Of a stretch of DNA of 64,000 bases, positions 18,261 through 61,623 are shown piece after piece (positions within the stretch are counted from its first letter, which is position 1; each line of letters opens with the position of its first letter). This stretch comes from Azolla caroliniana (lineage: Eukaryota; Plantae; Polypodiophyta): the NCBI GenBank assembly GCA_043228905.1, contig JBHGNT010000009.1, positions 744,001 to 808,000 on the forward strand, written 5' to 3'. The notes below the pieces were generated by a model that had not been told where the DNA came from, ran no database searches, and saw nothing but the letters and a program-made list of their open reading frames with translations. Both the position numbers and the translations under genes were made by a program.

Positions 18261-18330
18261 TTTGGTGTAATCAATCACAAGAAGATCTATATTGAACCAC
18301 ACCACACCTCACCTCCCAAGTGTGGTCTTG

Positions 18331-34866: not shown

Positions 34867-35151
34867 TATGGCAAGACTCGAACCCATGACCTTATGCTAC
34901 ATGGGTCGAGCTCTTGACCATTAGACTATACATTGTAATACATAGAATATTATTTTCATTTATGTTTTATTATAGAAAATTGATGTATATTCCAGATTTC
35001 TCTGGAACATTCTAGAAGCTTCAGGACTACTCCTGAGAGCAATATAAAAGGAGGCACAAGGCATTATTTCGAACCAAATCGATTCAACGCTAGTCTTAAG
35101 CCTCCTAGCTACTGTACATTTTCTTCACATAATATATATCTTTTCTTATCA

Positions 35152-35197
<46 letters not shown>

Positions 35198-35301
35198 TCA
35201 CTCACTCCTTCCTTCTCTCGAGAGTTCTTCACCTCTCTTAGTACTAATACTTCTTTTAGTACTAATTCCTTCTCTGTCTTAGTACTGTTCCTGACAGCCA
35301 C

Positions 35302-37040: not shown

Positions 37041-38334
37041 CCATGTGCTCGCATTGGAGATCGACGAGTTTTTCATTCCGACTGCGAAGCACTTGGTGGA
37101 ATACTTCTATCTATTGTAGCATCATAGCAACCGAGTTGTTCTTCCGAGTTGGCGACATTGGCGGAAGTGGGAATGGCCAGGGGGGGTGTCTTGACCCTGG
37201 ATGTTTATTGCCTGAAGCTCACGTTCGAGGTTGAAGACTCTTGCTTCTGAAGCCTGCCATAGCTCCGTCACTTGGTTGGCCTGTTTGCGGGCATGCTTAC
37301 TGCTAGAGGCCATATCCTTAGCCGCGCGGTGTCGCGTTGTTACGCGCGTACGTGTAGAAAGGGGCGGGATCACGGGGGTCTTGGACCGAGGAGCGAGAGA
37401 GAGAGAGAGACAGAGAGAGAGATTCACCGACACGTAGAAGCGAGAAAGAGAGAGATAGAATCGTAACACTTAATTATAATGACAAGAGATTACAATCCCT
37501 GACAGTTACAACCGACGAGGCGGCGACGGACCCGACACAGGGACCCTACTCACGCACACCGACGACAGTCACACGACTCCAAGAAACAAAGAGGAAAGGG
37601 AGCGACTTTGCTAGAAGCACACGGGTTGTCCACGAAGCAGAGGCAGCGCACTCCCATAGGCGGCGACGGACCCGCAGAGAACGATGGCTCGAGGAGAAGA
37701 GAGAGCTCGGCTTCCCTTCTGCAGCATCGCTTCTTTTTTCCCCCCAACGCGCGATCTCCCCCCAATCTCTTCTCCTGTTCCTTCCCTTTATTCCCTGTCC
37801 CTCCGTCTGACAGAGATACGCACCATCCCCTGATAAATGCGTGCCACTTCATATTTTCACCCACCGATCTGTTTATGAATCGGGTATGAAATATCGAGTC
37901 ACGCGTCCATCCGTGTAAGAGCCGGTTCACGCGCTTTTCTCTCCGATTCTGCCTATGGCCGGTTTTCTTCACGACATCCACCCCCACCAAACCGCGCATC
38001 CACTGGTATGCGCTAGAGACGGGTAGATATCGGAGAAATCCGGCCTCACTCGTTGCTCTCCGATTCTCCATCGGACCCGAACTGATCGTCGTCGTCGCTC
38101 CCGCTCGCAGGCTCCGGCTCGTCTTCGAACAGCTTCTTGAAAGCTTTGATCTGCTTTCCGGCCACTGACACCGCTAACCGTGTCTCATCGAATTCCGCGA
38201 GGTGGTACGTGCCGTTGCCGTTCGCGCTCGTCACTATGTAGGGCCTGAACCACCTCCTGGCAAACTTTCGCACCGCCTTGTGCTGATTGTCGAGGCTGCT
38301 GTCGTATACCAAGACCCAGTCGCCTTCCTCGATC

Positions 38335-41300
38335 TGATGTGCAAAACAGCGCTCGGTCACAAACCGAGGAACAGGGTCGATTCACAGAAAACGGGAAATG
38401 CAAGAATGCACGAAGACAATAGAGAGAAGAGTACACTGGATGTTTTACGTGGAAAACCCTAAATGGGAAAAAAACCACGGGAGTCCTCAAACTCCAACTA
38501 TCACTAAAACAGAGATGTACAATGGCGAAGCTACAAGGCAACAACCTTGAGCTCACTATCTTCACCACAGGCGGCGGTAATACACAGAGGCAACGACCTC
38601 TTCGTCTCTCTCTCTCTCGGCTGCTCTCACTTCGCTCCCTCTTCGTGGAAAACAGAAAAATGAGCAACAACATAAAACTGTTTGCCCTAAGTCATATTTA
38701 TACATATATGACTTTCGGGCTATTTACAAATATAGCCTCAAGGGACCTTGGCAAACATATTCACAAATATGTCCCCGCATCCGGATCTCTCTCCGGGTAC
38801 ATACGTCATCCGGCTCGTAACCGGGGTCTTCAGCATCCGGCTCTGTAACCGGGGTCTTCATCATCCGGATCCGCAGCCGGGTACTCTTCATCCGGCTTCA
38901 TGCCGGGTACTCTTCATCATACGGTTCCGTAACAGCCTCCGGGCTTGCCTTCATTCATCTCCGGACATCCCATCCGGAGGGACCGAAATCCCAACAAGCT
39001 CCCCCTTCACTTCGGCATGGGATGTCTCTCCAACCCGATCCTCTTCCGGCATGCTTCCAGCTTGTCGGGTGTGAGCACCTTGGTCAGCATATCCGACCCG
39101 TTCTCGTCCGTGTGGATCTTCGTCAGCACGAACTCCTCGTCTTCTATCCTCTCCCGGATCCAGTGGTATCTACGCTGGATGTGTTTCGTCCGGGAATGGT
39201 AGGCCGCGTTCTTCGCAAGGTGGATGGCACTCTGACTGTCACAGTAGAGTCGGTACTCCTCTTGCCGGATACCGAGCTCTCTAATGAAGTCCTTCATCCA
39301 TATTATTTCCTTGCCTGCTTCAACAGCCGCCATGTACTCCGCCTCCGTGGTTGACAGCGCAACCATCTTCTGCAGCCTCGACTGCCACGAAACAGCTCCA
39401 CCTGCATACGTCATCACATACCCTGATGTGGACCGGCTGGTATCTGCATCAGCCGACATATCCGAATTGGTAAAGCCGTCGAGTTCGGGCTTACCGGAGC
39501 CGAATCGGAGGCACACGTTTGCCGTGCCCTTCAGGTATCGGAGTATCCACTTGACCACGTTCCAGTGCTCTTTGCCGGGGTTGCTCATGTACCGGCTCAC
39601 CACTCCAACTGCATATCCTATGTCCGGTCTTGTACACACCATAGCGTACATCAAGCTTCCGACGGCAGAGGCATATGCTACTTTCATCATGTCCTCCTTC
39701 TCAGCCTTTGTCTTGGGGCTTTGCTTGCTGGACAACTTGCAGTTTGCCGGTAGGGTTGACCCGACCGGTCTTGCTTCCAACATGTTAAACCGGTGAAGCA
39801 CCTTTGTCACGTACTTCTCCTGTGACAGCCACAACTGCTTCTTCTTCCGGTCCCGGATGATGTGCATCCCTAGTATTTGCCTCGCCGGACCCAGGTCCTT
39901 CATTGAGAAGGTTCGGTGAAGCGCTTTCTTCAGCATCCGTATCTTGACCTGGTCCCGTCCGACGATCAACATGTCGTCCACGTACAGGAGGAGTATTAGA
40001 GAGTCTCCTCCTTCGAACTTCTTCACAAACACGCAGTGATCAGACTGCGTTTTGTGGTACCCTTCGTCGGTCATGAAGGAGTCGAACTTCCGGTACCATT
40101 GCCGGGGAGCCTGCTTCAGTCCGTAAAGGCTCTTCTTCAACCGGCATACCAGGTGCTCCTTCCTTTTCTTCTCGAATCCTTCCGGTTGCTGCATGTAGAT
40201 CTCTTCGTCGAGGTCACCGTGAAGGAATGCCGTCTTCACGTCCATCTGTTCTACCTCGAGGTCCATACTTGCCGCTATGCTCAGCACCGTCCGGATGGAG
40301 GTCATCTTCACTATCGGGGCAAATATCTCGTCGAAGTCGACGCCCTTCTTCTGCTGGAACCCCTTCACCACGATCCTGGCTTTGTATCTCAGGGGGTTTT
40401 CGGCATCTCCCGGTTTCAGCTTGAACACCCACTTGTTTCGAAGTGCCCGCTTTCCTTTCGGCAACTCCACAAGTTCATATGTGTGGTTCTCATGCAGGGA
40501 ATCCATCTCCTCCTGCATGGCACTTAACCACCTGCGGCTATGGGTGTCAAGTTTTGCTTCTTCAAAACTCTCCGGCTCCCCCTCGTCGGTCAGCAGCACG
40601 TGCTCAGGTTCCGGAAATCTCCGGGGGGCCCTTCTCTCTCTTAGAGGATATCTCCGTTCCGGAGCTTCGGTAACCGGCTCCTCCGATTCCTCTTCATCCG
40701 AATCCATTTCGGGATCGGGGCCGGTTCCGGTATCAGTTTCATCTTCCTCGGCCGGTTTTGTTTCTTCACCGTCTTCGGCCGGATCCTCGAGTGCTAACCG
40801 GTCCCTTGCCGGTCGGGACTGCTCCTCGTAGAGTTGATTCTCACCGGTCGACTTGGAGCTCTTCATCTTCTTCTCCGACTCCCAGTCGGCGAGCGTCTTG
40901 TCCTCCATGAAGATGATATCTCGACTCCTGAATATCTTCTTGTCGACCGGGTCCCATACTCGGTAGCCGAACTCGTCGTCGCCGTAACCGAGGAATATGC
41001 ATGGCCGGGTCTTTGGATCTAGCTTTCCTCTCCGGTCCTTTGCCACATGCACATATGCGAGACACCCGAACACCTTCAGATGCCGGTAGGATACTTCCCT
41101 ACCGGTCCACACTCTCTGCGGCGTGTCTCTGTCCAAAGGTACTGAGGGTGATCTGTTTATCACGTATGTCGCCGTCGACATTGCCTCAGCCCAAAACCCC
41201 TTGGGCAATTTCGCATGCGCCAGCATACTCCGGACCCTCTCCATTTTGGTCCGGTTCATCCTCTCGGCCAGCCCGTTCAGTTCCGGCGTCTTCGGCACAG

Positions 41301-43773
41301 TAAACTCGAGCCGGATTCCCTTCGAGCGACAGTACTCCTCGAACTGCCCCCGGTATTCCCCTCCGTTATCCGCTCGTATCGCTTTCAGCTTCTTACCGGA
41401 TTCCCTTTCCACTCTCGCGTGGAGTTCTTTGAAGATGCACAACACTTGGTCCTTTGTCTTCAACGGTGCCGTCCACAGCTTCCGGCTATGGTCATCTATG
41501 AATGTTACGAAGTACTGGGCTCCGCCATGTGACTTCGTTTCTACCTGACACACATCAGTGTGTACCAACTCCAATGGTACACTACGTCTCATCGGTGGTC
41601 TTGAGCGGAAGGAGGTTCGGTTCTGCTTACCGGCCAGGCAATCGGTGCACTTCTCCAGATGCACATGCTTCACTGGAATAAGGTTGTCTTCTGCAAGCCT
41701 CTTCATCCCCTTCTCGCTCATGTGGCACAGTCTCTTGTGCCACAGCTCACCGGCAGTGTCAGCTGCCACGTTCAGCTCCTCCGGACATAGCCGAGAATTC
41801 ATCAGGTACAGTGTGTTGACCTTCCGGGCCCGAGCCACTATCAGGCTCCCTTTGCTGAACTTCATGACACCGTTCCGGATGCTACCCGTGTAGCCTTCAT
41901 CGTCTAGCCTCCCGGCCGAAATCAGGTTCAATCGAACCTCCGGAACGTGTCGAACATCCTTCAACAGCATCTTGCATCCGGTTGATGTCATCAGCCACAC
42001 GTCTCCTATGCCGGTAATCCGGCATGTACCTTCATTTCCCATCCGGACACAGCCGTGCTCACCGGCTGTGTAGGATGAGAAGTATTTCTTCTCCGGGGTC
42101 AGGTGGAACGACGCTCCGGAATCGACCACCCAGGTCATCTCTTCACCGGCAAGGTTCAGCTCCCTCTCTTCGGTAATGAGCATTATCTCTTCTTCACTTG
42201 CCGCGAGTGCCGTCGTTCCTTTCCGGTCCTGTCCTCGCCGATCCGGACCTCTCCGGTCCGTGGCTCCCCGGTATGCGCCGTTTCGCTCCGGTGACTTCTT
42301 CGAATCGGTGTCGTCGGCTCCGTTGTCTTTTCGGTAATGCCGACAATTCTTCCGGAAGTGCCCCGGCTTCCCACAGTGGAAGCATGTGGGCCTTCCTCTT
42401 GACTGCGACCGGGTCCCCGACTTCTCCCGTCTTTGCGGACTCCGGTTCCGTTGTCTTCCCCATTCCGATTCGGTAAGCAGCATCTTCGGATCGGAGGCCG
42501 GTTCTTTATCTCTCCGACGCGCTTCTTCGTTCAAAATACTTGTCTTTACCGTTTGTAGGGACAAGTTATCTTCGGTGCAGGAGGTGCTGAGAGTCACCAC
42601 CAAGTTCTCCCAGCTTTCCGGCAATGTACACATCAGGATGATGGCTTGCATTGCATCCTCCAACGGGAACTTGATCGCCGCAAGCTGGTTCACGAATCCC
42701 ATGAACGTGCTTACGTGTTCCACCATACTCTCGCCGTCCCGGTACTTGAGGTTCACTATCTTTCTCATCAGGGAGGTCCGGTTCAACGCATTCTTCCTCT
42801 CGTAGAGGCCCGACAGCTTCCGCCACATCTCATATGCGTTAGTGTCGTTCGCCACGTGTTGTAGAACGCTCACGTCGACGTATTGCCGAATGGTTGCAAC
42901 GGCTTTCCGGTTCAGAAGCCTCCATTCCGTCTCAAGTACCCCCTTGGGTATTTCCGACCTGTCGATCGGTTCATACAGGTCCCGAACAATGAGCAGATCC
43001 TCCATCTTTATCTTCCAGTCGGCATAGTTCTACGCATTCAGCACCATCATCCCCGGCTGCCCGCTGCTGCCGCCTTCCATTTTCTGTGTTACCGTGCTCT
43101 GATACCACTTTGATGTGCAAAACAGCGCTCGGTCACAAACCGAGGAACAGGGTCGATTCACAGAAAACGGGAAATGCAAGAATGCACGAAGACAATAGAG
43201 AGAAGAGTACACTGGATGTTTTACGTGGAAAACCCTAAATGGGAAAAAAACCACGGGAGTCCTCAAACTCCAACTATCACTAAAACAGAGATGTACAATG
43301 GCGAAGCTACAAGGCAACAACCTTGAGCTCACTATCTTCACCACAGGCGGCGGTAATACACAGAGGCAACGACCTCTTCGTCTCTCTCTCTCTCGGCTGC
43401 TCTCACTTCGCTCCCTCTTCGTGGAAAACAGAAAAATGAGCAACAACATAAAACTGTTTGCCCTAAGTCATATTTATACATATATGACTTTCGGGCTATT
43501 TACAAATATAGCCTCAAGGGCCCTTGGCAAACATATTCACAAATATGTCCCCGCATCCGGATCTCTCTCCGGGTACATACGTCATCCGGCTCCGTAACCG
43601 GGGTCTTCAGCATCCGGCTCCGTAACCGGGGTCTTCATCATCCGGATCCGCAACCGGGTACTCTTCATCCGGCTTCATGCCGGGTACTCTTCATCATACG
43701 GTTCCGTAACAGCCTCCGCGCTTGCCGTCATTCATCTCCGGACATCCCATCCGGAGGGACCGAAATCCCAACA
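38335..43773 (-). mobile_element. Full-length Ty1/Copia (Tnt1/Tork-like), young
   Basis: LTRs 43773-43111 and 38996-38335, TSD CGATC (38330-38334 / 43774-43778), tRNA-iMet PBS TGGTATCAGAGC (43107-43096), PPT gaagggggag. Confidence 0.97.
39007..43080 (-). CDS. Copia Gag-Pol polyprotein (one TAG at codon 17; remaining 1332-aa ORF open)
   Basis: CFHCGKPGHFRKNC, WVVDSGAS, WHKRLCH, HTD/DNGGEY/AER, MDVKTAFL, YVDD, AEY and YCDSQSA. TAG at 43032-43030. Confidence 0.93.
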
Positions 43774-46700
43774 CGATCTTCTTTGGTCGTAACCGGTGCG
43801 TCCGGTTGAACCAGGTCTTGTTCCGCTCCCTTGCTGCTCGCAGCTTTTCCTTCGCTTGTATCATGTCCTCCGGCCTCCGCTCGAGTTGCCGAATCCACGC
43901 CGCCAACAACTCCTCCCGGCTCATTTCGTCCTTCCAATCTACCGCCGCCCACGAAGTAACCGTCCGTTCCACCGGCATGATCGGCTTTTGTCCGTAAATT
44001 AGCTCCGCCGGCATAAACCCTGCCACCGGAAGGAGTCGCGGCCAATTCCCGACCTGCCCACCACATGCACGCACCAACGCCTTTACAATCGGTCCGTGCC
44101 CACGTTCAACCTTTCTGTTCGCTTCCGGATTGTACGCCGTGGTGAGGGAGAGTTTGACGCCTAGCCGGTCGAACAGCTCCTCGGCCTCCCACGCATCCAG
44201 CTCTCCCCGGTCCGGCACGATCCTCCCGACGCACCCGTACTGACACACTACTTCTTCGATCAGGAACCGGCATACCACCGCGGTTGTCTTGCTTTGCAAT
44301 GCACGACCTTCCACCTGGTTTGTTAAGTCCTCTCGTGCAAGCACCAGGTATCGCATCTGTCCTACCCCCATCGACATCGTCACCAAGTCGACCATCCACT
44401 TGAAATGGACCGTAGGCGGGTAGGTCGGGTGTAACTCGTCCCGATGTCGGACTACAGAGTGCATCTGACAGCTTTCGCAAGTCGTTACGTACCGATGCAC
44501 GTCCTGGTACAACCCCGACCACCAGTACTTCTCCTTCAGCTTCTCGAAAGTGGCCCACGTTCCGCGGTGTCCGGCCCAGGGGCTCTCGTGAAATGCCGCC
44601 AGTAGTTTCCCCTGTTCTTCTTTCTTTGCCACTACTCGGAGTGGAGTGCCACTTCTCTTCTTGGGGTGCCTCCATATGCACCCATCCCGCAGGAAGAATC
44701 GGTACGCCTTCCTCCGTATCCGACTCGCCTCCTCTCTCGCCCATGCTGCGTCTGGCGTCATCGTCCGTAGGAACCTCCCGATTTGGAGCCACTCCCTGTC
44801 GTACCTGCTTTCGTCAAATTCGTTAAGCGCCGGAGAGTTCCCTTTCCTCGTCGTTACGTTAGCCAACCCGAAGAAGTCCTCACCGACTTCTTCGTCATCC
44901 GAAACCATGCCGTCTTCGTCGTTGAACCTTGCCCTCGAAAGCATGTCGGCCATGGCGTTGTCCTTTCCGGAGATGTGCCGTATCTCCGGGTTCAGGGACT
45001 TAATGTACGCTATCCACCGGAGCATTGCGAGGTCTGGCGTCGCGCATCCGGAAACCATGCCGAGTATCGGCAGGCAGTCCGTCTCGATAATCACCTCCGT
45101 CCCGATCAGATAATCCTTGTCGGCCTTGACTGCCGAAACGACACCCCAAAGTTCGCGCTTAACTTGGGCGTATCCTCGCTGCCACTCGCTCAATACCTTC
45201 GCCCCGAACCGGATCGGGAATCGTACGCCGCCCTTGCCCTCTTGGCTGATTACCCACCCGATCCCGGTCGGGCTGGTGTCCACCGTTACGCAGATGGGAA
45301 CATCCTTTCCGTAAACCGCCTTACGGAGAGCCGGCGCTGCCGTAAGCGCCTCCTTTAGTCTCCGTACCGACTCCGTGTGCTCCGTCCTCCAGTCAAAGCT
45401 ATGCCCCTTTTTCAATAGTTCGTAGAGGGGTTCCACGACATGTGCGTAGTGCGGGATCCAGATGTGGTAGAACGCGCATGCCCCCAGGAATCTGCGGACC
45501 TCCATGACCGACCCGCAATCGTTCCTCATCGTGGAGATGGCCTCTACCTTTGCCGAAGACGGTTTCCTACCGTAGGGCCCGCACAAGTGTCCGACCACCA
45601 AGATCTCCGACTGTCCGAAGGCCGACTTTTCCCCGGAGAAGGTGAGCCTCGCGCCTTCTAGTCTCTCCTCGCAGTCATCGATGTGAGTCGCCACGAAATT
45701 TCGACATCCGTCCGGCTCGACTGCCTCGTCCTTTTCCTCCACCGGGCATCCCTTGATCGGGATGTCGTCTAAGAATGGCATGGTGATGTCCAGGATACAA
45801 TCCCTGAGCACTTTGTTCATCGCGTTCACCATGTGAGCCACTGAGTTCGTCCCTCCTTGTGGCAGGGTACACATCCGCACTAGGCCTAGAGGAGTCCGCA
45901 TCGTCGTAATGTCTCGGCACTCCACGGCTAGTTGGAACTGATCATACCCCGAGTACAGATCACCGACAGAGTAAATCGACCTTCCGGCGAAGGCCTCCGC
46001 GAACTCGTCTATGGTCGGTCCGATTCCTGCGTTACGGATGGTCACCTTGTTGACCGGTTGCAGGTGTCCTGAATGAAGCGCAACGTGCCATTCTTCTTTG
46101 GCACCGTAAACCACCGATTCGAATACGGGGCACTCGACGGTTCGAGGATGCCCATCTCCACCTTTTGCTTTAGGAGCTCCATCAACTTCGGGATGTGAGC
46201 TCTTGGCACCGGAATCGGCTTGAGATTCCACAGTACATGCGGTATCATGAAGATCACCATCGGTTCGACAACTGTCGGGTCTACGCACCCGATCTCCTCC
46301 GGTGAGAATGTGAAAGCCTTCCCATGCCTCCCGAGCATTCTTCGGAACCGGTCCTCCTCTGCCGGCAGTAGAAAGCCGCCCCCACCGACCTTGAGCTCCC
46401 GTAGCGTTATGTCGGTGAACCGGTGCCCTATGCCAGCCAGATTTCGTAAACTTGGGTCTGACAAGACCCCCTTTATCCGCTCCTCGTTGTGCTCCGGCAA
46501 GCGTGCCGCGACTGGCCTCACCTTCCGGTCCACAGTCTTGTATTTCGTATCCACGCGGGCCGTCCAATCCGACCCGATCCTTTCCCCGAAGTCTGCGATG
46601 ACTTCGTACATTCCCATCGCTCCTCCGCTTGCTTCCTCTCCCTGCCGCTGACGCTGTTTATAGTACAACCTCCGCTGTCGGAGAACCAAAATTTCCTACC

Positions 46701-47162
46701 TATGGTACAAGTCTTCTTCCGTACTGTACATTTGTGGGGTTGTTCCCGGGTGTCCGGACTATCGCGGCCCCACGCCTTGATAGCCCTCTCTAAAAATCCC
46801 CTCGGGTTTTGCTGCCGAGGGCCTCGCGGTTACGCTCGTGGTTTGGTCGCACCGTTAGGAACTGGACCGAGTGACGCCCGTCTTGGCTCTTGACTCTTGC
46901 ATAGGCTGAACCGTTGTCCAACACCTTGGTCTCCATCCGTGCCGCCGTGATATATGGCTCTCCTAGTATAACCGGATGCGAGGACGTCTCTTGCACGAAG
47001 AAGTGCTGGTCGATCTCGACATCGCCGATTTTCACCTGTACGTTCGGACAGGCCCCATGTAGTTCTTCCGTGGCGCGCTGTCGTAGTGTAGGTTGCACAC
47101 TATGTGGAAATTATATTTTTGTCCCTCCGGATAGAGAATGGAGTGCTCGGTGAGAACCGGAA

Positions 47163-47280
47163 GAAAACGGCATACCGGCAAGGAGGAAAAACGGCATACC
47201 GGCAAGGAGGGAAAACGGCATACCGGCAAGGAGGAAAACGGCATACCGGCAAGGAAGAAAACGGCATACCGGCAAGGAAG
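47163..47280 (+). repeat. 24-25-bp tandem repeat in family B U3
   Basis: GAAAACGGCATACCGGCAAGGA.. occurs 5 times here and in the solo LTR, 4 times in the 3' LTR (~53683-53775). Confidence 0.92.
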
Positions 47281-47944
47281 AGCCGGATAAAGAGACATAA
47301 ATGTAAAAAGAAAGGAAATACTCACTACTGCGCAGGGCGTGATTCAAACTCTGCACCTCCACGTTGACAAACCCCAACCTTACCATTACATTAACTTATC
47401 TTAAGTGTTTTAAATATAGATTTAATACGTATAAGACCTTTATTTATGCATACCTTTATTAAAAGGTAAATCGTGTATTTTTTTAATATATGAAAAAGAA
47501 AAACACGAGACACTAAAAATAACTCATGCACATCTAGCATGCATGAGCCCTATACTTAGGAAATAAAAAAGCATCACATGCACATTTTAGTGGACATGAA
47601 CACTTTTTGTAAAAAAAAAAAAGAAAGCATGAAGCCATGCTTAGCTCTTCCTTCCTTATATAAGGAGGAGAGAAATATATAAAGGGTTGTTGATTATTTG
47701 GATTAAGTATTAATCAATACAAAAATTATTCGTGGGATTCACGATTTATACATCTACTTCTCTCTTAACACCCTAAGTACCAATTAATATAGTATACTCG
47801 TGTGATTCACGAGTTTCTTATCTTTCTCTTCGCTATTTATTCATAATTAATCTTTATCTCACGAACTTCTTTCTCCTAGTCCAAGACCTCTGTGGTTCCC
47901 ACCCGACTCACGCAACGATCCGGAGCCGAAAGGCACGACACAGT

Positions 47945-47962
47945 TGGTGAACCCGACGTGAA
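47945..47962 (+). promoter_or_regulatory. Primer binding site complementary to the tRNA-Trp(CCA) 3' end
   Basis: TGGTGAACCCGACGTGAA is the reverse complement of ..TTCACGTCGGGTTCACCA, the plant cytosolic tRNA-Trp 3' end as I recall it. Confidence 0.85.
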
Positions 47963-47978
47963 AACGGGTGGCAAGGAG

Positions 47979-50009
47979 ATGGAGGCTCAACAAGCTAACA
48001 ATATGATGGCGATGTTCGAACGGATGCTTCAAGAACAACGCACGATGTCGGAGATTTCGGCATCAGTAGAGCGGCTCGTGCAACGCAACGGGCAATTTAA
48101 TGGTAAGGATGTGTCGCGATATTTGCAGGACTACAAGGCGGAGATGCTCCGGTGCCGGGCTTCGGAAGGACTGCAAGTGACATCCTTTAACCGGGTGGCG
48201 ACCGACGGGCTTCAAGGGAGTATCCACGGGTTACAAAATCCGACGTGGGAAGCATTCGAAGAGGCGTTAAAGACCACGTTTGCCATCGAGGACTCCTCCA
48301 AGGCAACACGGAGGGGATTCGAGGATTGGGTGGAAACGTCAGGTAAGGGGCTGAAGGTCCTCGAAGTGTTTTCGACATTCGAAAGTCGGTTCGGGAGGTT
48401 GTCCGCGAGAGATCAAACTATTCTTGCACCGGACAAAGTCATCATGTTTTTGCGAGCTGTGGACGTCCGGGACCGGAAAGATCTCGGAGTGCTTCTTGAG
48501 GACACGACCACCGAAAGCGGCCTCACCGAAACATGGGAAAGCGTGCGGGATATCGTCGCGCGGTACACGAAGAGGGGGCAATGGCTTGCCAACGAAGAAA
48601 AGAGGGTTTCGGAACCGATTCCGAAACCGAGAACGGGACTGGAAGACCATCAACCGAGGGCTCGGGAGATTACGGCCGAGAAGGGAGTCGACGCGTCTAC
48701 GGTGGAGCAGCTGCTGAAGGAGATGGAGAATCTAAAGATCGCGATGGTGAAGAAGTCGGATGACCGCCCCACAAGCTCCAAATATACGGATCGACGGTGC
48801 ATATGGTGCGATAGCGCCGAACACGATCGGAGGGATTGCGACGACCATAAGGAGGCGCTACGACGGGATCTCATCTACTACGAGGGAAACCGGATTCATT
48901 CGATGGACTCTCGGAAGCCACTCCGACCGAACTTCCGGAAAGGCGGCATGAAGAAGGTGCTCGAGGAGGAGTTAGCGGCAAGAAGCAACTATGCAACAAC
49001 CGCGGGAATATGTGTCGGGGAGTCATCGGGAGCGAAGGCGTCTTTCTGGCCGGAGGTGCTAGGAAACACCGAGAAAACCGACTCCAACGATATCCGAAAC
49101 ACCGCGGAAGGCGTCCGGGAAGCTACGGGATGGGAGTGCCCTGTCGACAAGAATAGCATATACGCCCTGTGTCAATTACATGAGGTGTATGTGGACGAGA
49201 AACGACGGCGCACGGAGGATGCGGCCGGACCATCGAAGATACCGGAAAGCTGGAACTCCGGAGGTAAGGGAAAAGAAAAGGCGACTCCGGCATTCAAGCT
49301 CGCCTCGGACATAGAACAACAAACCGACTTGAAAAGAGTGTTCGAGGAAAGAATCTTGGATAGCCGGGTAGATTTTTCGTTGCGGGAACTACTCGGAATA
49401 GCGAAGAAGGAGTTTCACGATCTTCTCGTGGATCTCGTGAAAAGGAAGAGACAAAGTACGGAGGAAAATGCTCCAAGGGTGAATGCAAATACCGTTTCAA
49501 CGAACGACACCGAAGTGGAAGGCGAAATTCCGAACTCCCACTATACAAGGCCACACTGGGCCCGTGCGACTACGGAGACTCCGGTCCGAATCGGCAACAT
49601 CAAAGAACCCGTGCTAGCATTGATTGATCACGGATCGGAGATCAACTTGATGTCCGAGTTCTACCGAAAGGGGAAGTGGCCTATAAACACCAACCATGGA
49701 TGGAAGATTCGGGCAGCCACGAAAACGACAGAAGACCTATTTGCGGCTTGTCCGGATGTGACGGTAAAGATCGGGGATGTCGAAATTGACCAAAATTTCT
49801 TTGTGCAGGATGAGGTTTCACATTCTGTCATCCTCGGCCAACCCTTTATCACGGCTTCACGGATGGAGACGAAGGTGCTCGATAGTGGTGTGGCTTTTGC
49901 GCGAATTCGGAGCCAAAACGGAGGGAAATCCGTCCAATTCCTAACGGTGCCGGCAAATCACGAAAGGAACAAGAGGGAACTCTTGCCCCAAGTGAGAATG
50001 GATTTTTAA
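47979..50009 (+). CDS. gag: Gag-protease ORF of family B (~676 aa)
   Basis: FNGKDVSRYL, zinc knuckle CIWCDSAEHDRRDC, aspartic protease ALIDHGSEIN...VILGQPF, all before the stop. Confidence 0.9.
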   Translation: MEAQQANNMMAMFERMLQEQRTMSEISASVERLVQRNGQFNGKDVSRYLQDYKAEMLRCRASEGLQVTSFNRVATDGLQGSIHGLQNPTWEAFEEALKTTFAIEDSSKATRRGFEDWVETSGKGLKVLEVFSTFESRFGRLSARDQTILAPDKVIMFLRAVDVRDRKDLGVLLEDTTTESGLTETWESVRDIVARYTKRGQWLANEEKRVSEPIPKPRTGLEDHQPRAREITAEKGVDASTVEQLLKEMENLKIAMVKKSDDRPTSSKYTDRRCIWCDSAEHDRRDCDDHKEALRRDLIYYEGNRIHSMDSRKPLRPNFRKGGMKKVLEEELAARSNYATTAGICVGESSGAKASFWPEVLGNTEKTDSNDIRNTAEGVREATGWECPVDKNSIYALCQLHEVYVDEKRRRTEDAAGPSKIPESWNSGGKGKEKATPAFKLASDIEQQTDLKRVFEERILDSRVDFSLRELLGIAKKEFHDLLVDLVKRKRQSTEENAPRVNANTVSTNDTEVEGEIPNSHYTRPHWARATTETPVRIGNIKEPVLALIDHGSEINLMSEFYRKGKWPINTNHGWKIRAATKTTEDLFAACPDVTVKIGDVEIDQNFFVQDEVSHSVILGQPFITASRMETKVLDSGVAFARIRSQNGGKSVQFLTVPANHERNKRELLPQVRMDF

Positions 50010-53000
50010 AGCAGACTGTTGTGGAGTGGGGAAGTGATAGTCCGAGAAGCCCTGATACCCCACACAGGAAGAAAACTCTCGGAGCAAAACAAGTACGAAT
50101 CGGCCCGGATGGGGCATCTACGTACACGGCCGTAACCGGAGGAATGAAGAAACAATACCGACAAGTGGAGGATAAGTTACGGTCGGCATCAATAATAAAA
50201 GAAGACGAAGAAATCGTGGGAGTGATCGAGGAAGTGTTCTATGGGAATACACTACAACGGCTTGAAGAGCTTGCGAAAGATAAAAGCCAAGGGAACCGGG
50301 TAGTCCCGGTGGAATCGGTCGAGATGTACGAGATCGTTGCGAAAATGGGGCCGGATGCGCTCCGCAAAGAAGAAGCAATGGTAAGTACGAAATACAAGAC
50401 TGTGGAGAAGAAGGTGAAACCGGCCGCGGGACCACTACCCGCCGATAGCGAACAAAAGAGGAAAGAAGTCTCGGGAGATCCGACACTTCGGAAGACCGTG
50501 GATATCGGACATGCCTTCACAGATGAGACCCGGAAGAAACTTCGGATCGGTGGAGGTGGGTTCCTCTTACAAGAAGAAGAAAAACGGTTTCGAGAGATGT
50601 TGGAGCAACACGGCAAAGCATTCGCGTTCACATCGAGGGAGATCGGATGCATTGATCCAAAGATAGTGGAGCCGATGGTGATCTTCACGATTGATCATGT
50701 ACCGTGGAACCTGAAGCCGATTCCGGTGCCACGGGCGCATATTCCGAAAGTCATCGACTTGCTCAAGGAGAAGGTGGCGATGGGGATTCTAGAGCCATCA
50801 AGTGCTCCGTACTCAAATCGATGGTTTACGGTTCCGAAGAAGAATGGGTCACTCCGATTCATCCAAGACTTGCAACCGGTGAACAAGGTCACGATCCGGA
50901 ACTCGGGAGTCGGTCCGATAGTGGATGAATTCGCGGAAGCTTTTGCCGGACGTGCGATATACTCCATCGGGGACCTATACTCGGGGTATGACCAATTCCA
51001 ACTAGCCGTGGAGAGCCGAGACATCACTACCATGCGGACACCGATAGGACTAGTTCGAATGTGCACACTACCACAAGGAGCGACAAACTCGGTTGCACAT
51101 ATGATGAACGCGATGAACAAGGTGCTTCGAGATTGCATCCCGGAGATAACGATGCCGTTTCTAGATGACATTCCGATGAAAGGATGCGCGGTGGAAGAAA
51201 AAGATGAGACTATGGATGATCGGGGATGCCGAAAGTTCGTGGTCGACCATATTCATGATTGCGAGAAAGTGTTGCGAAAGCTAGAAGATGTGCACCTAAC
51301 ACTTTCCGGGGAGAAATCGGCATTCGGGCAAGAAGAAATATTGGTGGTCGGACATCTATGTGGACCCTACGGCCGAAGACCGTCACCAACAAAGATCGAT
51401 GCGATTCAAGCTATGAAGGAAGTTTGTGAGTCAACATCGGAAGTTCGAAGGTTTCTGGGTGCGTGTGCATTCTATCACATATGGATTCCGCACTATGCAC
51501 ATATAGCGGACCCGCTCTATCACTTGTTGCGGAAAGGTAAGAAATTTGAGTGGAAACCGGAACACACTAAAGCCATGAGGAAGCTCAAGAAGACACTATG
51601 GAGGGCGGAATCACTTAAGAAGCCAAGCTACGAGCGGCCAATCATAGTAACGGTTGATACAAGTCCAACCGGTATCGGGTGGGTCATCAATCAAGCCGAC
51701 TCGGATGGTTCGCGGTATCCGATCCGATTTGGAGCAAAGGTCCTCAACGAAAGGCAACGCGGATATGCACAAGTCAAAAGAGAATTGTGGGGAGTCGTGT
51801 CGGCGATAAAATCGGATCGGGATTATTTGATCGGAGCTGAAGTGGTGATCGAGACGGATTGTCTTCCGATACTCGGGATGATGCGGTGTTGTACGATACC
51901 GGATGTGGCTATGCTAAGGTGGATTGCATATGTCAAGTCACTTAATCCGGAGGTTCGACACATCTCGGGGAAGGACAACGCGGTAGCGGACATGTTATCG
52001 AGGGCGCGGTTTGAAGACGACATAACCGAATCAGATAATGAAGAAGTTTCCGAAGACTACTTCACGTCAGAACACATATGCCGAGTGAACGTGATCCGAG
52101 AATTCCGGGAAGAAGAATACGAGGGGGAAACCTTGATGATCGGGAAGATGCTACAAGAGGTCGAGGATTCAACCAATGATAAAGAAAGGAGAGCCGAGAT
52201 CCGAAGGAAGAAGAGGCAAGTCCAAAAGTTCTTCTTGGAAAACGGTTTAATATGGAGGACGCCGAAAAGACCGGATGGGATACCACTTCGAGTAGTCGGG
52301 ACGAAAGAGCAACGAAACCGGATAATGTCCGAGTTCCACGAATCCGATTGGGCTGGACATCGAGGAACATGGGCAACTTTTGTGAAAATCAAGCAAAGAT
52401 ATTGGTGGAAGAACATGTATAAAGATGTCGCGGAGTTCACAGAAAGCTGCGAGAAATGTCAAGTCTACTCCGGGGTCCGACACCGAGATGAGCTGCATCC
52501 GACATTCTCACCGACAATCAACTTCAAGTGGATGGTCGACATTGTAGCTATGCCGACCGGGATTGGACAAAAGAAATACTTGGTGTTAGCTCGAGAAGAT
52601 CTCACAAACCAAGTTGAAGGTCGAGCGCTTCGGAGGAAAACGTGTGCCGCGGTGTGCCAATTTCTTTTGGAAGAAGTGTTTTGTAGGTACGGCTGCGTAG
52701 GACAAGTGATTGCGGACCGGGGAGAACTCGACTCGGACAAAGCTAGGGGATTCTTCGCCAAACATGGAGTTCGGTTAACGTTGACAACGGCCTACAATCC
52801 GGAGGCCAACGGGAAGATCAAACGAGGACATAGTCCGATCGTGAAAGCACTTGCGAAGGCATGCGACGGAAGGGTGAAGGATTGGCCACAAATGCTTCCG
52901 TATGCACTATGGGCGGATCGGACGACGCATAGCTCCGTGACCGGTTACATGCCGGCAGAACTCATGACCGGACAAGCACCGGTAATGCCAACGGAAACCG

Positions 53001-53611
53001 CAATCGCGACATGGACAATACTACCGTGGAAGGAAGAGATGAGCCGGGAAGAACTACTAGCGGTCCGGATACGACAACTGGAGGGAAGACCGAAAGATGT
53101 AGCAGAAGCGTCACGCCGACAACAAGAAGCACGGTTCCGGAACAAAAGCCGGTTCGACACAAAGCACCGACTACGACCGAGGAGGATTGAAGAAGGAGAT
53201 TGGGTGATCGTCTATGATAGTAGCTTGGACCATCAACATACAACGATGCGGAAATTCGCGAAAAGGTGGTTCGGGCCGTACGAGGTTCGGAAGGTCTTCG
53301 ACAACGGGACGTACCGACTGTCCGAGTTGGATGGAACAATACTACGAGTGCCTATAGCCGGGAAGCGGGTGAAGATTTTCAAGAAGCGGACCGACGACAA
53401 ACCTTATGTGATCCAAGTCGAGGCCGACAACGAGGAGCAATCGGACGAAGACCACAATGATGCGGGAAGCGAAGAAAGTGGATTACAACTCATAATCGAC
53501 ATAAGGGGAGAATCGGAGGAAGCTTCGGATGAAGACGGATACGAAGAATCAAGAACTTCGGCACATACCGGAGGATGTGCGGGTTTGGAGGGGGCGAGTG
53601 TCGTAGTGTAG
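50000..53611 (+). CDS. pol: RT-RNase H-integrase ORF of family B (-1 frame relative to gag-PR)
   Basis: DLYSGYDQF, LPQGATNS, PFLDD, VDTS..ELW..ETDC..NAVADMLSR, HESDWAGH..CEKC, VD..ADRG..NGKIKRGH and a GPY motif; no chromodomain. Confidence 0.92.
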   Translation, partial: GFLKQTVVEWGSDSPRSPDTPHRKKTLGAKQVRIGPDGASTYTAVTGGMKKQYRQVEDKLRSASIIKEDEEIVGVIEEVFYGNTLQRLEELAKDKSQGNRVVPVESVEMYEIVAKMGPDALRKEEAMVSTKYKTVEKKVKPAAGPLPADSEQKRKEVSGDPTLRKTVDIGHAFTDETRKKLRIGGGGFLLQEEEKRFREMLEQHGKAFAFTSREIGCIDPKIVEPMVIFTIDHVPWNLKPIPVPRAHIPKVIDLLKEKVAMGILEPSSAPYSNRWFTVPKKNGSLRFIQDLQPVNKVTIRNSGVGPIVDEFAEAFAGRAIYSIGDLYSGYDQFQLAVESRDITTMRTPIGLVRMCTLPQGATNSVAHMMNAMNKVLRDCIPEITMPFLDDIPMKGCAVEEKDETMDDRGCRKFVVDHIHDCEKVLRKLEDVHLTLSGEKSAFGQEEILVVGHLCGPYGRRPSPTKIDAIQAMKEVCESTSEVRRFLGACAFYHIWIPHYAHIADPLYHLLRKGKKFEWKPEHTKAMRKLKKTLWRAESLKKPSYERPIIVTVDTSPTGIGWVINQADSDGSRYPIRFGAKVLNERQRGYAQVKRELWGVVSAIKSDRDYLIGAEVVIETDCLPILGMMRCCTIPDVAMLRWIAYVKSLNPEVRHISGKDNAVADMLSRARFEDDITESDNEEVSEDYFTSEHICRVNVIREFREEEYEGETLMIGKMLQEVEDSTNDKERRAEIRRKKRQVQKFFLENGLIWRTPKRPDGIPLRVVGTKEQRNRIMSEFHESDWAGHRGTWATFVKIKQRYWWKNMYKDVAEFTESCEKCQVYSGVRHRDELHPTFSPTINFKWMVDIVAMPTGIGQKKYLVLAREDLTNQVEGRALRRKTCAAVCQFLLEEVFCRYGCVGQVIADRGELDSDKARGFFAKHGVRLTLTTAYNPEANGKIKRGHSPIVKALAKACDGRVKDWPQMLPYALWADRTTHSSVTGYMPAELMTGQAPVMPTETAIATWTILPWKEEMSREELLAVRIRQLEGRPKDVAEASRRQQEARFRNKSRFDTKHRLRPRRIEEGDWVIVYDSSLDHQHTTMRKFAKRWFGPYEVRKVFDNGTYRLSELDGTILRVPIAGKRVKIFKKRTDDKPYVIQVEADNEEQSDEDHNDAGSEESGLQLIIDIRGESEEASDEDGYEESRTSAHTGGCAGLEGASVVV

Positions 53612-56600
53612 GTTGCACACTATGTGGAAATTATATTTTTGTCCCTCCGGATAGAGAATGGAGTGCTCGGTGAGAACCGGAAGAAAACGGCATACCGGCA
53701 AGGAGGGAAAACGGCATACCGGCAAGGAGGAAAACGGCATACCGGCAAGGAAGAAAACGGCATACCGGCAAGGAAGAGCCGGATAAAGAGACATAAATGT
53801 AAAAAGAAAGGAAATACTCACTACTGCGCAGGGCGTGATTCAAACTCTGCACCTCCACGTTGAAAAACCCCAACCTTACCATTACATTAACTTATCTTAA
53901 GTGTTTTAAATATAGATTTAATACATATAAGACCTTTATTTATGCATACCTTTATTAAAAGGTAAATCGTGTATTTTTTTAATATATGAAAAAGAAAAAC
54001 ACGAGACACTAAAAATAACTCATGCACATCTAGCGTGCATGAGCCCTATACTTAGGAAATAAAAAAGCATCACATGCACATTTTAGTGGACATGAACACT
54101 TTTTGTAAAAAAAAAAAAAAAGCATGAAGCCATGCTTAGCTCTTCCTTCCTTATATAAGGAGGAGAGAAATATATAAAGGGTTGTTGATTATTTGGATTA
54201 AGTATTAATCAATACAAAAATTATTCGTGGGATTCACGATTTATACATCTACTTCTCTCTTAACACCCTAAGTACCAATTAATATAGTATACTCGTGTGA
54301 TTCACGAGTTTCTTATCTTTCTCTTCGCTATTTATTCATAATTAATCTTTATCTCACGAACTTCTTTCTCCTAGTCCAAGACCTCTGTGGTTCCCACCCG
54401 ACTCACGCAACGATCCGGAGCTGAAAGGCACGACAACGTAGTCCATTCCGACGTACGGGGACCGGCACAGACGGCTACATTCGGCGGATGCCGATATTAC
54501 GTGCTCTTCATCGACGACTTCTCTAGGCACACTTGGATTTACCCAATGCGGCAAAAGAGCGAAGTGTTCGGACACTTCCAAAACATTCAAGAATGAAGTC
54601 GAGAAAGCCACGGGCCGACATGTATGTTGTCTTCAATCGGACGGCGGCAAGGAGTACTTCTCAAACGATTTCACGGCGTATCTCCGAAAGGAAGGAATTC
54701 GGCGAGAATTCACTTGCCAACACACTCCGTAACAAAACGGGGTAGCCAAGCACAAAAATCAGCACATCCTCGAAGTAGCGCAGGCCATGATGAACGAGAA
54801 GCATATGCCCAAGTCATATTGGGCCAAAGCTGCAAATACGACCATCTACCTAATGAACCGGTGTACAACATCCGGCGTGCACAAGGTCACTCCGCATGAA
54901 AAATACTTCAAAAAGAAGCCAGACTTATCACACACCCGAATATTTGGGGCGATAGCGTACGTGCACATCCCTGACGAGAAGCGTCAAAAGCTTGACCTGA
55001 AATCAGAGAAATGTATCCTCGTAGGATACTCATTGGAGCAAAAGGGGTACAAGTGCTACAACCCATCAACTCGAAAATCTCGAGTAAGTCGAGACGTCGT
55101 ATTTGACGAATCTGCATCCTGGTACGCACCAAAGACAACTTCGACTCTGACTCCGACTCCGCTCAACCCGGAATCCGCCGAACAAGAGGTAGAGGATGAA
55201 GATCGCCTTACGCGCATTTTCGAAGAAAGTCCGATCACGACCCGACTGAGCGGACCACAAGAGCCTTTGAGCGATCAAAGCGCATCACGACCTAGCCCGA
55301 AGATGGACAAAGGCAAGGCGAAAATGTCGGAATACGAAGACGATCGCTTCGATGACGATGAGTCGACTCACTCACTCGACAGTGAGTTCGGTGGCTTCGA
55401 TGTACCAATTGGAGCTAAGAAAGCCCTCATCTCTGCAAATGAAAAGCTTTGTCTCTCCACCCGTGAAAAGAATCCGGTCAGCCGATTCGGCTACAACGAC
55501 TACATGGCATATCACTATGCCTTTATGATGAAGGTGGCGATAGTACGCGAGCCAGAAAAATTCTCCGAAGTAGCCAAGGATCTGCGATGGATCGAAGCCA
55601 TGAACGAGGAGATGCATGCACTACGCAAGAACAAGATGTGGGATCTCGTTCCCACCTCACCACACAAAAAGGAGATCGGATGCAGATGGATTTACAAAGT
55701 GAAGTACAACGTTGGCGGTTCTGTCAACCGCTACAAAGCGCGACTCGTAGCGAAAGGCTACGCCCAAACGGACGGAGTTGACTACAAGGAAACCTTTTCC
55801 CCGGTGGCAAAGATGACGATGGTACAGACCGTAATTGCGCTTGCCGCGGCGAATGGGTGGCACCTCCATCAAATGGACGTCAAGAACACCTTTCTACAAG
55901 GCGAATTAGAAGAGGAGGTGTACATGATACAACCACCCGGCTTCAACTCGAGCACCCATCCGAAAGCTGTATGCTGACTCAAGAAGCCACTCTACAGCCT
56001 CAAACAAGCACCACCTGCTTGGCATTCGAAGATAACGCAATATCTTCATCACATCGGCTTCCGCATGTCAAAATCAGACAACTCTCTCTACATACGAAGC
56101 AATTCCGCAAGTCCGATCGTCATCATCTTATATGTGGATGACCTAGTCATTGGAGGTGAGCATCTCGTCGAAATCAAGAAGGTTAAAACCCTCCTTTCCG
56201 ACAAGTTCAAGATGACGGACATGAAGAAGCTCCACTACTTCCTCGGCATCGAGGTAATTCGGACTCCGGCCGGAATCATGATCTCTCAACGGCACTACAT
56301 CCTCAACTTGTTATGGGTGAAAGCATGAGAGTGGAAACAATTAGCTATGTCCTTGACATAGCTAATTAGCTATGCAAAAAGCTACCATTGATAAATAGTC
56401 ATTTTAGTAAAAGCCATCATTAATAAATTAACTATGCAAAAAACTACCATTGAAAATACTAGAGTGTTTTAATTACATATGTAAATGAGTGCCATAAATG
56501 TGCAACATAAACATGCAACATAAATTGATATGTGCACCATAAATGTGTACCATAAATTATATATCGAATTCCTAGGTCCATTATGCATGATCCTTTGCCA

Positions 56601-56679
56601 CATCACGTAGGCCATCTCTAGTTGAGTATTGTGGGTTAGTTGCTACCACTGTTGCTAAACCCTATCAAATCCACCTGCC

Positions 56680-60944: not shown

Positions 60945-61623
60945 AGAATCATATCCGATTCTTTATAGGTCCCTTATAGAGGGGTTGCCCATTTTGAGTT
61001 AGGAGGGTATACCGTTAGGTTTAGGGTTTGGGGGTTTTCTCTTAATCTTATTTTCTTAGGGTTTCATTTTGGTCTTCGTCTTCTTTGTCTTATGGGTTTG
61101 ATTCCTTCTTCTTGAGTGGAGGTTTAGTATTCCGTTTAGTTTCTTCTTCTTCTTCTCCCCCTTCGTGTCTGTCTAGGGTTTTAGCCCGGTGAAGAGCTTG
61201 TATGTTCTGTGGGGATTTACTTCTGCTCGGCCTCCTGTGCAAGACCCTGCTCGGCGCAGCAAGCCCGAGAGCTCCCCGACGGCGGCTTGGCAGCAGACTG
61301 TTGTTGTGACCTAGCTTACCTCAGTCCGGCTCAAAGCCGGAGTTGTAACTCACTCTTGTAATCATATATATAAAGGGTTGTGCATATTTGTGTCTCTATT
61401 GGTGTCGGGTGCATTTCTTTCCCGTTGTTTCCTGTACATAAGAGGCGTGTGTTGTGTCGGTGTTGCACGCGTGCTCTCTCTCTCTCTCTCTCCTTTTCTC
61501 TCTCTCTTGTGTTCGATTGCCCCTGGTACATGTCCGGGGTCAGTTTCTTCGCATGCCTTCCTCCCTCGTCCAAGACCCATGTGGTCCCACCCCTTCTACA
61601 CGCACGTGCGTAATAACGTGACA
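60945..61623 (+). mobile_element. 3' part of another LTR of the Trp-primed lineage
   Basis: Similar to 36163-36480, has the U5 motif gtccaagacc..acacgca, ends CGTGACA and is followed by ACGT. Confidence 0.65.

What the first reader, a model, noticed from the sequence alone, without database searches (positions are those of the whole stretch)
47079..54435. Unusual Gypsy lineage: tRNA-Trp primed, Gag-PR / RT-RH-IN split, 4-bp TSD, four LTR families in 32 kb
Seen: PBS TGGTGAACCCGACGTGAA 4 nt after the LTR, protease inside ORF1, RT core FLDD, no chromodomain, a 4-bp TSD, and related LTR ends at 29911, 37040, 37330 and 61623. Known: most plant LTR elements prime on tRNA-iMet (Athila/Tat clades on Asp, Lys or Arg), make 5-bp TSDs and put PR with pol or in one ORF; tRNA-Trp priming is typical of avian alpharetroviruses. 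Inference: this is a poorly characterised non-chromovirus lineage with a retrovirus-like expression and priming design. I cannot tell from here whether it is already named.
Basis: partly seen in the sequence, partly recalled or inferred. Interest (0 to 1): 0.8.

Follow-up and report, generated by a model that had tools for sequence, protein, structure and literature searches.

The report
Phygy retrotransposon with conserved frameshift signal
This plant jumping gene very likely belongs to an already named group (Phygy), so its tryptophan-tRNA primer site and 4-base target duplications are not new, but a slippery site and predicted RNA knot kept at the end of its first gene likely make ribosomes slip back one base to reach the enzyme gene, and a related sub-group with the knot one base closer would slip back two.

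Summary
The element is real: LTRs 47079-47940 and 53599-54435, an 18-nt PBS matching host tRNA-Trp(CCA), Gag-protease in ORF1, RT-RH-IN in ORF2, no chromodomain. It is not an unnamed lineage: REXdb's Phygy clade is listed with tRNA-Trp (81%), 4-bp NCGN TSDs (100%) and no extra domain, and Physcomitrium proteins are homologous; the RT could not be placed against REXdb references. This copy has no TSD of its own (GCGC/ACGT, unrelated flanks) and a damaged integrase; the 4-bp TSD is at the solo LTR and in 24 of 28 other insertions. What REXdb leaves undetermined is the ORF layout. ORF1 ends G_GAU_UUU-stop, followed after 6 nt by a covarying stem and predicted H-type pseudoknot; pol is in the -1 frame in 54 of 57 relatives. 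This predicts -1 ribosomal frameshifting between protease and RT. A nested sub-clade (83 motif copies in this genome) has pol in the +1 frame under purifying selection, AG_GUU_UUU and the same knot 5 nt away: a likely natural switch to -2 frameshifting, as spacer-length experiments predict. No translation was measured.

The parts
47079..47940 (+). 5' LTR, 862 nt, TG...CA, with five 23-24-nt tandem units
47945..47962 (+). Primer binding site, 18 nt complementary to host tRNA-Trp(CCA) 3' end
47979..50009 (+). ORF1, Gag-protease, 676 aa from first ATG; CX2CX4HX4C knuckle at 48798, DUF4100, protease motif DHGS at 49626; ends ...MDF-stop
50000..50009 (+). Slippery heptamer G_GAT_TTT and ORF1 stop; predicted -1 frameshift site
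50013..50063 (+). Predicted H-type pseudoknot: stem 1 about 50013-50022 with 50034-50043, stem 2 about 50026-50031 with 50058-50063; this copy has private substitutions that weaken stem 1
49886..53611 (+). ORF2 (stop to stop, 1241 aa) in the -1 frame: linker, RT (FLDD 51158), RNase H, integrase with HHCC (52337) and SH3-like tail, no chromodomain; last acidic residue of the integrase DDE triad (52820) is substituted in this copy
53587..53598 (+). Polypurine tract directly before the 3' LTR
   Evidence: same tract in other copies
53599..54435 (+). 3' LTR, 837 nt (four tandem units); flank ACGT does not match the 5' flank GCGC
29911..30772 (-). Solo LTR of the same family with exact 4-bp TSD ACGC, inserted in the gag of a chromovirus
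37330..47078 (-). Sister-family element (3' LTR 37330-37976, pol 43694-46657, protease end and the same frameshift cassette at 46750-46799), cut at 47078 and interrupted by a Copia element
35990..37040 (+). Degraded LTR of a third related family; start approximate, no TSD resolved
60975..61623 (+). 3' part of an LTR of a fourth related family, followed by ACGT; start approximate

Best explanation
The stretch is a young but damaged, likely recombinant copy of a Ty3/gypsy LTR retrotransposon that is very likely of the Phygy clade, and its RT-RNase H-integrase gene is likely made by -1 ribosomal frameshifting at the end of the Gag-protease gene. Shown: LTRs, a PBS matching host tRNA-Trp, a PPT, two overlapping ORFs with pol in the -1 frame, 4-bp NCGN target duplications in the family, and a heptamer-stop-spacer-stem cassette kept across divergent families. 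Inferred: most ribosomes stop at the ORF1 stop and make Gag-PR; a minority, held on G_GAU_UUU by a pseudoknot 6 nt downstream, slip one base and make Gag-PR-RT-RH-IN, which sets the Gag excess; tRNA-Trp primes the minus strand and the PPT the plus strand; the integrase cuts 4 bp apart with CG in the middle. In a nested sub-clade the ribosome would meet the same knot one base later (5-nt spacer, AG_GUU_UUU) and slip two bases. This copy itself likely arose by recombination between two insertions that deleted the DNA between them.
For: Phygy features: REXdb table; tRNA-Trp; 24 of 28 exact 4-bp TSDs, 28 of 28 NCGN right flanks; no chromodomain, no aRH; three Physcomitrium patens proteins at 43-51% identity to Gag-PR, E 1e-66 to 1e-77; also Riccia and Adiantum; Riccia pol 48-68%. 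Frameshift: of 80 metagenome loci, 57 had protease next to RT; pol is in -1 in 54, and 48 have an X_XAU_UUY-type heptamer directly before the ORF1 stop; the stop is TAG 24, TAA 22, TGA 11. Stem 1: 96.6% of cells paired, 6 of 8 pairs with changes on both sides, 0 of 500 shuffles as high, slid controls 23-44% (26 sequences). In 23 non-redundant cassettes the best stem-1 score is 19.9 against 10.9 +/- 0.6 for shuffles and stem 2 15.8 against 11.7 +/- 0.6. 3,417 matches to the cassette pattern in the genome, 0 for the reversed control. The same heptamer with a nearby, interchangeable stop drives -1 frameshifting in umbraviruses in wheat germ extract (PMC4737148, passages). No TSD and unrelated flanks for this copy.
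Against: No translation, ribosome or RNA data; structure is predicted only. Stem 2 is weaker evidence: own loop beat the mean of swapped partners in only 15 of 23 cases (15.8 against 14.1), because G and C runs are shared. The covariation shuffle ignores relatedness, and most metagenome loci carry accessions of one series, so they are not independent hosts. The window copy's own cassette does not fold into stem 1 as its minimum-energy structure (z -0.72). The RT was not placed against REXdb Phygy references, and 7,357 bp is below the listed Phygy range of 7,656-9,968 bp. GAU re-pairs poorly in the -1 frame (PMC4737148 notes the same for its site). An assembly collapse between two copies could also explain the missing TSD.
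Confidence: 0.75

Rival explanations
1. Pol is reached by splicing out the ORF1 stop region, as in Ogre elements, and the stem serves splicing or packaging.
For: Ogre has the same Gag-PR / RT-RH-IN split and uses an intron (PMC6317226 section 13). A Physcomitrium gene model joins protease to RT across this junction (P0315), though that is only a prediction.
Against: The ORFs overlap instead of being separated by 170-270 nt as in Bianca and Ogre; the heptamer lies in register with the stop in 48 of 57 loci; the 130-codon linker after the junction is under purifying selection in the +1 clade (dN 0.175, dS 0.77).
Confidence: 0.08
2. Pol is made by reinitiation or internal initiation at an AUG after the ORF1 stop, or from a separate RNA; the frame relation is incidental.
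For: In-frame AUGs exist 27-48 codons after the junction. It would explain why both -1 and +1 layouts are viable.
Against: It does not explain a conserved heptamer and fixed spacer; ORF2 is open across the junction in nearly all loci and the residues right after the shift site resemble each other in both layouts, though RNA structure could also hold them; free Pol would lack Gag for packaging (established retroelement biology).
Confidence: 0.07
3. The element belongs to a separate, unnamed non-chromovirus clade that only shares PBS and TSD type with Phygy, or to TatI.
For: RT not tested against REXdb references; size just under the Phygy range; TatI also has Trp PBS and 4-bp TSD.
Against: NCGN preference is given as unique to Phygy; no aRH between protease and RT, which TatI requires; close Gag-PR homologues in P. 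patens, whose non-chromovirus clade is Phygy.
Confidence: 0.12
4. For the +1-frame sub-clade only: pol is reached by a +1 frameshift or by polymerase slippage on the U run, not by a -2 shift.
For: Frame alone cannot tell +1 from -2; the P-site GUU codon cannot re-pair well after a -2 shift; some copies have six U's, which would allow a +1 slip.
Against: Most copies read GUU_UUU_GAC, poor for +1 at the U run; the site matches the PRRSV -2/-1 site GG_GUU_UUU with a -1 stop right after (PMC4937337; 30 of 33 close the -1 frame after 2 codons); the knot is one base closer, as -2 shifting requires (PMC3458567 abstract).
Confidence: 0.3

Closest known systems
Phygy clade, non-chromovirus Ty3/gypsy (Neumann et al. 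2019, PMC6317226; sections 8, 9, 13 and Additional file 5 read)
   Same: tRNA-Trp PBS, 4-bp NCGN TSD, no chromodomain, no aRH, no extra ORF, coding region filling the internal part; homologous Gag-PR in P. patens; nesting into a Tcn1-like chromovirus as reported for P. patens (PMC6911290, passages).
   Different: ORF organisation is ND in REXdb; here it is Gag-PR overlapping RT-RH-IN in -1 (or +1 in a sub-clade). 7.4 kb against 7.7-10.0 kb. Defined as species-specific there; homologues here in Riccia and Adiantum, and Phygy is reported in the liverwort Apopellia (PMC12885004, passages).
TatI, Ogre and Retand (same paper)
   Same: TatI: Trp PBS and 4-bp TSD. Ogre, Retand: split between Gag-PR and RT-RH-IN.
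   Different: All carry an aRH domain, absent here; their split is a stop codon or an intron, not an overlap.
Umbravirus -1 frameshift signal (pea enation mosaic virus RNA2; PMC4737148, passages)
   Same: G_GAU_UUU heptamer, stop of any kind at or near its 3' side, 5-6-nt spacer, structure downstream, plant ribosomes.
   Different: Stimulator there is a bulged hairpin with a long-distance pairing; here a compact predicted H-type pseudoknot, untested.
Rous sarcoma virus gag-pol (PMC5009743, passages; Trp priming and protease in Gag recalled)
   Same: -1 shift at the end of gag with a pseudoknot; layout Gag-PR then pol.
   Different: A retrovirus with env; no sign of kinship was tested, likeness read as convergence.
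PRRSV nsp2 -2/-1 frameshift (PMC4937337, passages) and spacer-length experiments (PMC3458567, abstract)
   Same: For the +1-frame sub-clade: G_GUU_UUU site, -1 frame closed at once, shorter spacer favouring -2.
   Different: PRRSV needs a protein complex on a C-rich motif and has no RNA structure; here an RNA pseudoknot would be the stimulator and the -2 product would be the essential polymerase.

Membership tests
Ty3/gypsy LTR retrotransposon | LTRs, PBS, PPT and domain order PR-RT-RH-IN | tested here: met
Phygy | Non-chromovirus: no chromodomain, RT apart from chromoviruses | tested here: met
   No Chromo hit while the window's chromovirus hits it; separate 100/100 clades
Phygy | PBS for tRNA-Trp | tested here: met
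   18-nt match to host tRNA-Trp(CCA) genes; 5,539 pattern matches in the genome, some double-counted
Phygy | 4-bp TSD with NCGN preference | tested here: met
   Family level: 24 of 28 exact, 0 of 28 5-bp, 28 of 28 NCGN right flanks. This copy itself has none
Phygy | No aRH, no extra ORF, coding region fills the internal part | tested here: met
Phygy | RT-RH-IN cluster with the REXdb Phygy references (the primary definition) | not testable with these tools
   REXdb FASTA and Additional file 1 too large to read; indirect support from P. patens Gag-PR homologues
Phygy | Length 7,656-9,968 bp (descriptive, one species) | tested here: inconclusive
   7,357 bp here; +1-frame family about 7.9 kb; the paper calls size weak for classification
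TatI | aRH domain between protease and RT | tested here: not met
   No Pfam hit at E up to 5 in 50000-50698
Selgy | tRNA-Ala PBS, GAG:o:PROT-RT layout | tested here: not met
   Trp PBS, protease in ORF1
Canonical -1 programmed ribosomal frameshift signal | Slippery heptamer in the 0 frame with overlapping -1 ORF | tested here: met
   48 of 57 directly before the stop, 54 of 57 in -1
Canonical -1 programmed ribosomal frameshift signal | 3' stimulatory structure 5-9 nt downstream | tested here: met
   Stem 1 covaries; stem 2 above shuffles but weakly above swaps; structure not probed
Canonical -1 programmed ribosomal frameshift signal | Measured frameshifting or transframe protein | not testable with these tools
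   no translation data
-2 programmed ribosomal frameshift (sub-clade outside the window) | Functional downstream ORF in +1 frame behind a U-rich site | tested here: met
   RT in +1 in 26 of 33; dN/dS about 0.09-0.12; young insertions with 4-bp TSDs
-2 programmed ribosomal frameshift (sub-clade outside the window) | Direction of shift is -2, not +1 | not testable with these tools
   needs the junction peptide

The most novel reading that the evidence does not exclude
Phygy elements are a widespread plant retrotransposon lineage that makes Gag-Pol by pseudoknot-stimulated -1 frameshifting between protease and RT, and one still-mobile sub-clade has switched to -2 frameshifting at AG_GUU_UUU by moving the same pseudoknot one base closer: a natural, RNA-structure-driven -2 shift for an essential polymerase and an evolutionary test of the mRNA-tension model.
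Probability: 0.55. Interest if true: 0.75.

Novelty: new variant of a known kind. Interest (0 to 1): 0.5.

Why it matters
The priming and TSD features are already in print, so the finding as written is mostly ordinary. The expression signal is the part worth keeping. A 2016 review (PMC5009743, passages) reports that a 2003 survey found only two types of plant elements with separate gag and pol frames, both +1, and REXdb leaves the Phygy layout undetermined; my searches listed no paper on a frameshift signal in Phygy, but the library lacks most subscription journals and the 2003 survey itself. If confirmed, a lineage with thousands of copies in this genome would be a plant retrotransposon case of -1 frameshifting, and the paired -1 and -2 cassettes, which differ by one base of spacer, would make the spacer-tension model testable on natural signals. 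It would also correct gene models that splice across this junction.

Tried and rejected
TSD around the element itself: rejected (GCGC/ACGT). TatI and Selgy: rejected. Viral contigs: no relative. PDB sequence search with the protease: nothing. ESM Atlas: nearest clusters unnamed with no taxa, the rest generic Gypsy pol; not informative. Cluster look-ups gave no organism names for the more distant relatives, so a link to the fungal Ylt1-like clade (PMC2864245, passages) stays untested. DUF4100: no paper found; my recollection that it was built from Physcomitrella proteins is from memory only. Expression: no RNA holder listed; contigs of four runs laid on the internal region listed no joint across 50000-50050 among the 15 shown of 21, but they are contigs and probably DNA, so this is no evidence on splicing. 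P. patens RLG2/RLG3 paper does not give clade or layout in the passages read. Two papers (the 2003 recoding survey, by a recalled id, and Fang 2012) were not held. Earlier notes on a tRNA-Arg site replacing the PPT concern another lineage; this element has a normal PPT. The host species was not determined.
Full report
Observation. The window holds a full-length Gypsy-type element at 47079-54435. Its LTRs are 862 and 837 nt, with 4 substitutions and 25 gap columns, mostly one tandem unit. The PBS starts 4 nt after the 5' LTR. A pattern built on its reverse complement found 62 sites in the genome; in all 7 loci scanned, of 10 fetched, ARAGORN called tRNA-Trp(CCA), and the PBS pairs with that tRNA plus CCA over 18 nt. 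I did not compare it with a full tRNA set. ORF1 (47979-50009) carries a zinc knuckle, DUF4100 and a DHGS protease motif; ORF2 carries RT (FLDD), RNase H and integrase, with no chromodomain or second RNase H. The four LTR families are there.

One point is wrong. The element's flanks are GCGC and ACGT. The left flank is the cut protease of a sister element on the minus strand, the right flank a Copia integrase. The copy therefore joins the ends of two insertions, likely by recombination, possibly by assembly collapse. The 4-bp TSD is at the solo LTR (ACGC). The family has 2,927 exact LTR-end matches in a 523-Mb genome. Among 11 solo LTRs and 17 two-LTR elements resolved from 50 loci on contig C1, 24 of 28 have an exact 4-bp TSD, the other 4 differ at one base, none has a 5-bp TSD, and all 28 right flanks are NCGN. 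The window copy is damaged: the last acidic residue of the integrase triad, invariant in 67 of 67 homologues that match the motif and 9 of 9 same-family copies, is substituted, and its frameshift stem has 7 of 8 core pairs against 8 of 8 in 29 of 30 sister copies.

What it is. Neumann et al. 2019 (PMC6317226; outline, sections 8, 9, 13, passages, Additional file 5 whole, file 6 searched; files 1 and 3 unreadable) list Phygy as non-chromovirus, 4-bp TSD 100% (NCGN), tRNA-Trp 81%, no extra domain, 7,656-9,968 bp, ORF organisation ND. Every feature I could test matches except length (7,357 bp). TatI shares Trp and 4 bp but needs an aRH, which is absent. Gag-PR has homologues in Physcomitrium patens (43-51%), Adiantum and Riccia, and pol in Riccia. 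In an RT-RH tree of 85 rows the element sits with these relatives in a 100/100 clade, far from the window's chromovirus; no named REXdb reference was in the tree, so membership rests on features, about 0.85. Phygy insertions into Tcn1 elements, as at 29911, are reported for P. patens (PMC6911290, passages). The host is a plant; I did not determine which.

How pol is likely made. ORF1 ends ATG GAT TTT TAA and ORF2 overlaps it in the -1 frame. The sister element in the window and other families in the genome, with Gag only about 43% identical, end the same way. Of 80 metagenome loci, 57 held protease next to RT; 54 have pol in -1 and 3 in +1; 48 have G_GAT_TTT, G_GAT_TTC, A_AAT_TTT or G_AAT_TTT directly before the stop, which may be any of the three. 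Of the other 9, three have the heptamer 1 or 5 codons before the stop, three keep it but lost the stop, one is deleted and two are the +1 type. P. patens proteins end ...KDFGEVPL, like the 5-codon group. Six bases after the heptamer lies a stem: in 26 aligned cassettes 96.6% of cells pair, 6 of 8 pairs change on both sides, no shuffle of 500 reaches this and slid controls pair 23-44% (I left two divergent cassettes out of that alignment, and the shuffle ignores relatedness). The loop's G run can pair with a C run downstream, giving an H-type pseudoknot; over 23 non-redundant cassettes both stems beat dinucleotide shuffles (19.9 against 10.9; 15.8 against 11.7), while stem 2 beat swapped partners only modestly (15 of 23). 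The cassette pattern has 3,417 matches in the genome. The same heptamer, with a nearby stop whose identity is free but whose presence matters, drives -1 frameshifting in pea enation mosaic virus (PMC4737148, passages). I infer -1 frameshifting, about 0.85; nothing was measured. Most metagenome loci share one accession series and may come from a few related hosts.

A variant outside the window. Two metagenome loci and one genome locus have pol in +1. Their motif has 83 matches in the genome. In 33 sequences examined (30 of the 83, plus L175, L176 and L127, which repeats one of the 30) the protease is in the CAG_GTT_TTT frame in 33, RT is in +1 in 26, in other frames in 5 and missing in 2, and the -1 frame closes after two codons in 30. 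These form a 100/100 clade nested among -1 families. L176 is a separate family, 78% identical in DNA. Pol is under purifying selection (dN 0.10, dS 1.13; dN 0.024, dS 0.21). Of 16 copies fetched whole, 9 of them chosen because their frames looked open, 8 have both ORFs open; 10 had both LTRs resolved, with 0-7 mismatches per about 1,100 nt and exact 4-bp TSDs in 7. The same stem and G/C runs follow, but 5 nt after the U run instead of 6. The site matches the PRRSV -2/-1 site GG_GUU_UUU (PMC4937337, passages), and -2 shifting is optimal at spacers 1-2 nt shorter than -1 (PMC3458567, abstract). I read this as a likely switch to -2; a +1 shift or polymerase slippage is not excluded.

Comparison and novelty. 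Trp priming and 4-bp TSD are known for Phygy, and the Gag-PR / RT split is known for Ogre and Retand. The review PMC5009743 (passages from the first 300,000 characters) says the 2003 survey found plant elements with separate frames only in +1, and names -2 shifting for phage Mu, arteriviruses and a Trichomonas virus. REXdb does list overlapping ORFs for Tcn1, Selgy and SIRE without frames, so -1 shifting in plant elements may be known to specialists. Searches listed nothing on a Phygy frameshift signal; PMC5580714 (passages) names no plant frameshift case in the passages shown. Other papers seen: PMC12885004, PMC7466625, PMC2864245 (passages), PMC4350172 (abstract). Verdict: a member, very likely, of a known clade, with an undescribed predicted recoding signal and a predicted -1 to -2 switch in a sister sub-clade. 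New variant of a known kind; interest 0.5.

Noticed in passing
G000 loci L221-L278, L127; metagenome L175, L176: Sub-clade with pol in the +1 frame, AG_GTT_TTT site, 5-nt spacer and the same predicted pseudoknot; candidate -2 frameshift.
   Followed up: yes
L032, L033, L035, L036, L039, L044, L045, L048, L050: 9 of 20 fetched LTR pairs are short non-autonomous elements (internal 1.6-2.8 kb) with the same LTR ends, Trp PBS, PPT and 4-bp TSD, and a single ORF that starts like Gag and runs into charged repeats; they resemble TR-GAG elements (PMC4350172, abstract).
   Followed up: partly
L191, L219 and P. patens proteins P0268, P0282: Subgroup with the ORF1 stop 5 codons after the heptamer and a different downstream hairpin.
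   Followed up: no
G000 C5 10.1 Mb, C8 17.80-17.82 Mb, C16 4.99-5.11 Mb: tRNA-Trp genes occur in tandem arrays; 62 matches to the 3' end pattern in all. Any link to the abundance of Trp-primed elements is untested.
   Followed up: no
window 28770-35297: Chromovirus (Tcn1-like by layout, not tested) with chromodomain and 5-bp TSD GCCAC; the solo LTR sits in its gag.
   Followed up: partly
window about 38335-43780, minus strand: Copia element with an open 1,340-aa ORF, tRNA-Met-type PBS at 43107 and 99% identical LTRs, nested in the sister Phygy-type element.
   Followed up: no
window 54436-61000: Broken Copia element holding 83-bp and 20-bp tandem arrays and an HTH-bearing ORF at 57494-58330.
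   Followed up: no
window 16334-18308, minus strand: Host gene with FAD_binding_4 domain, berberine-bridge-enzyme-like by my recall of the family.
   Followed up: no
L044, L275: Tandem arrangements in which an LTR is followed by a second internal region (three LTRs in L044).
   Followed up: no
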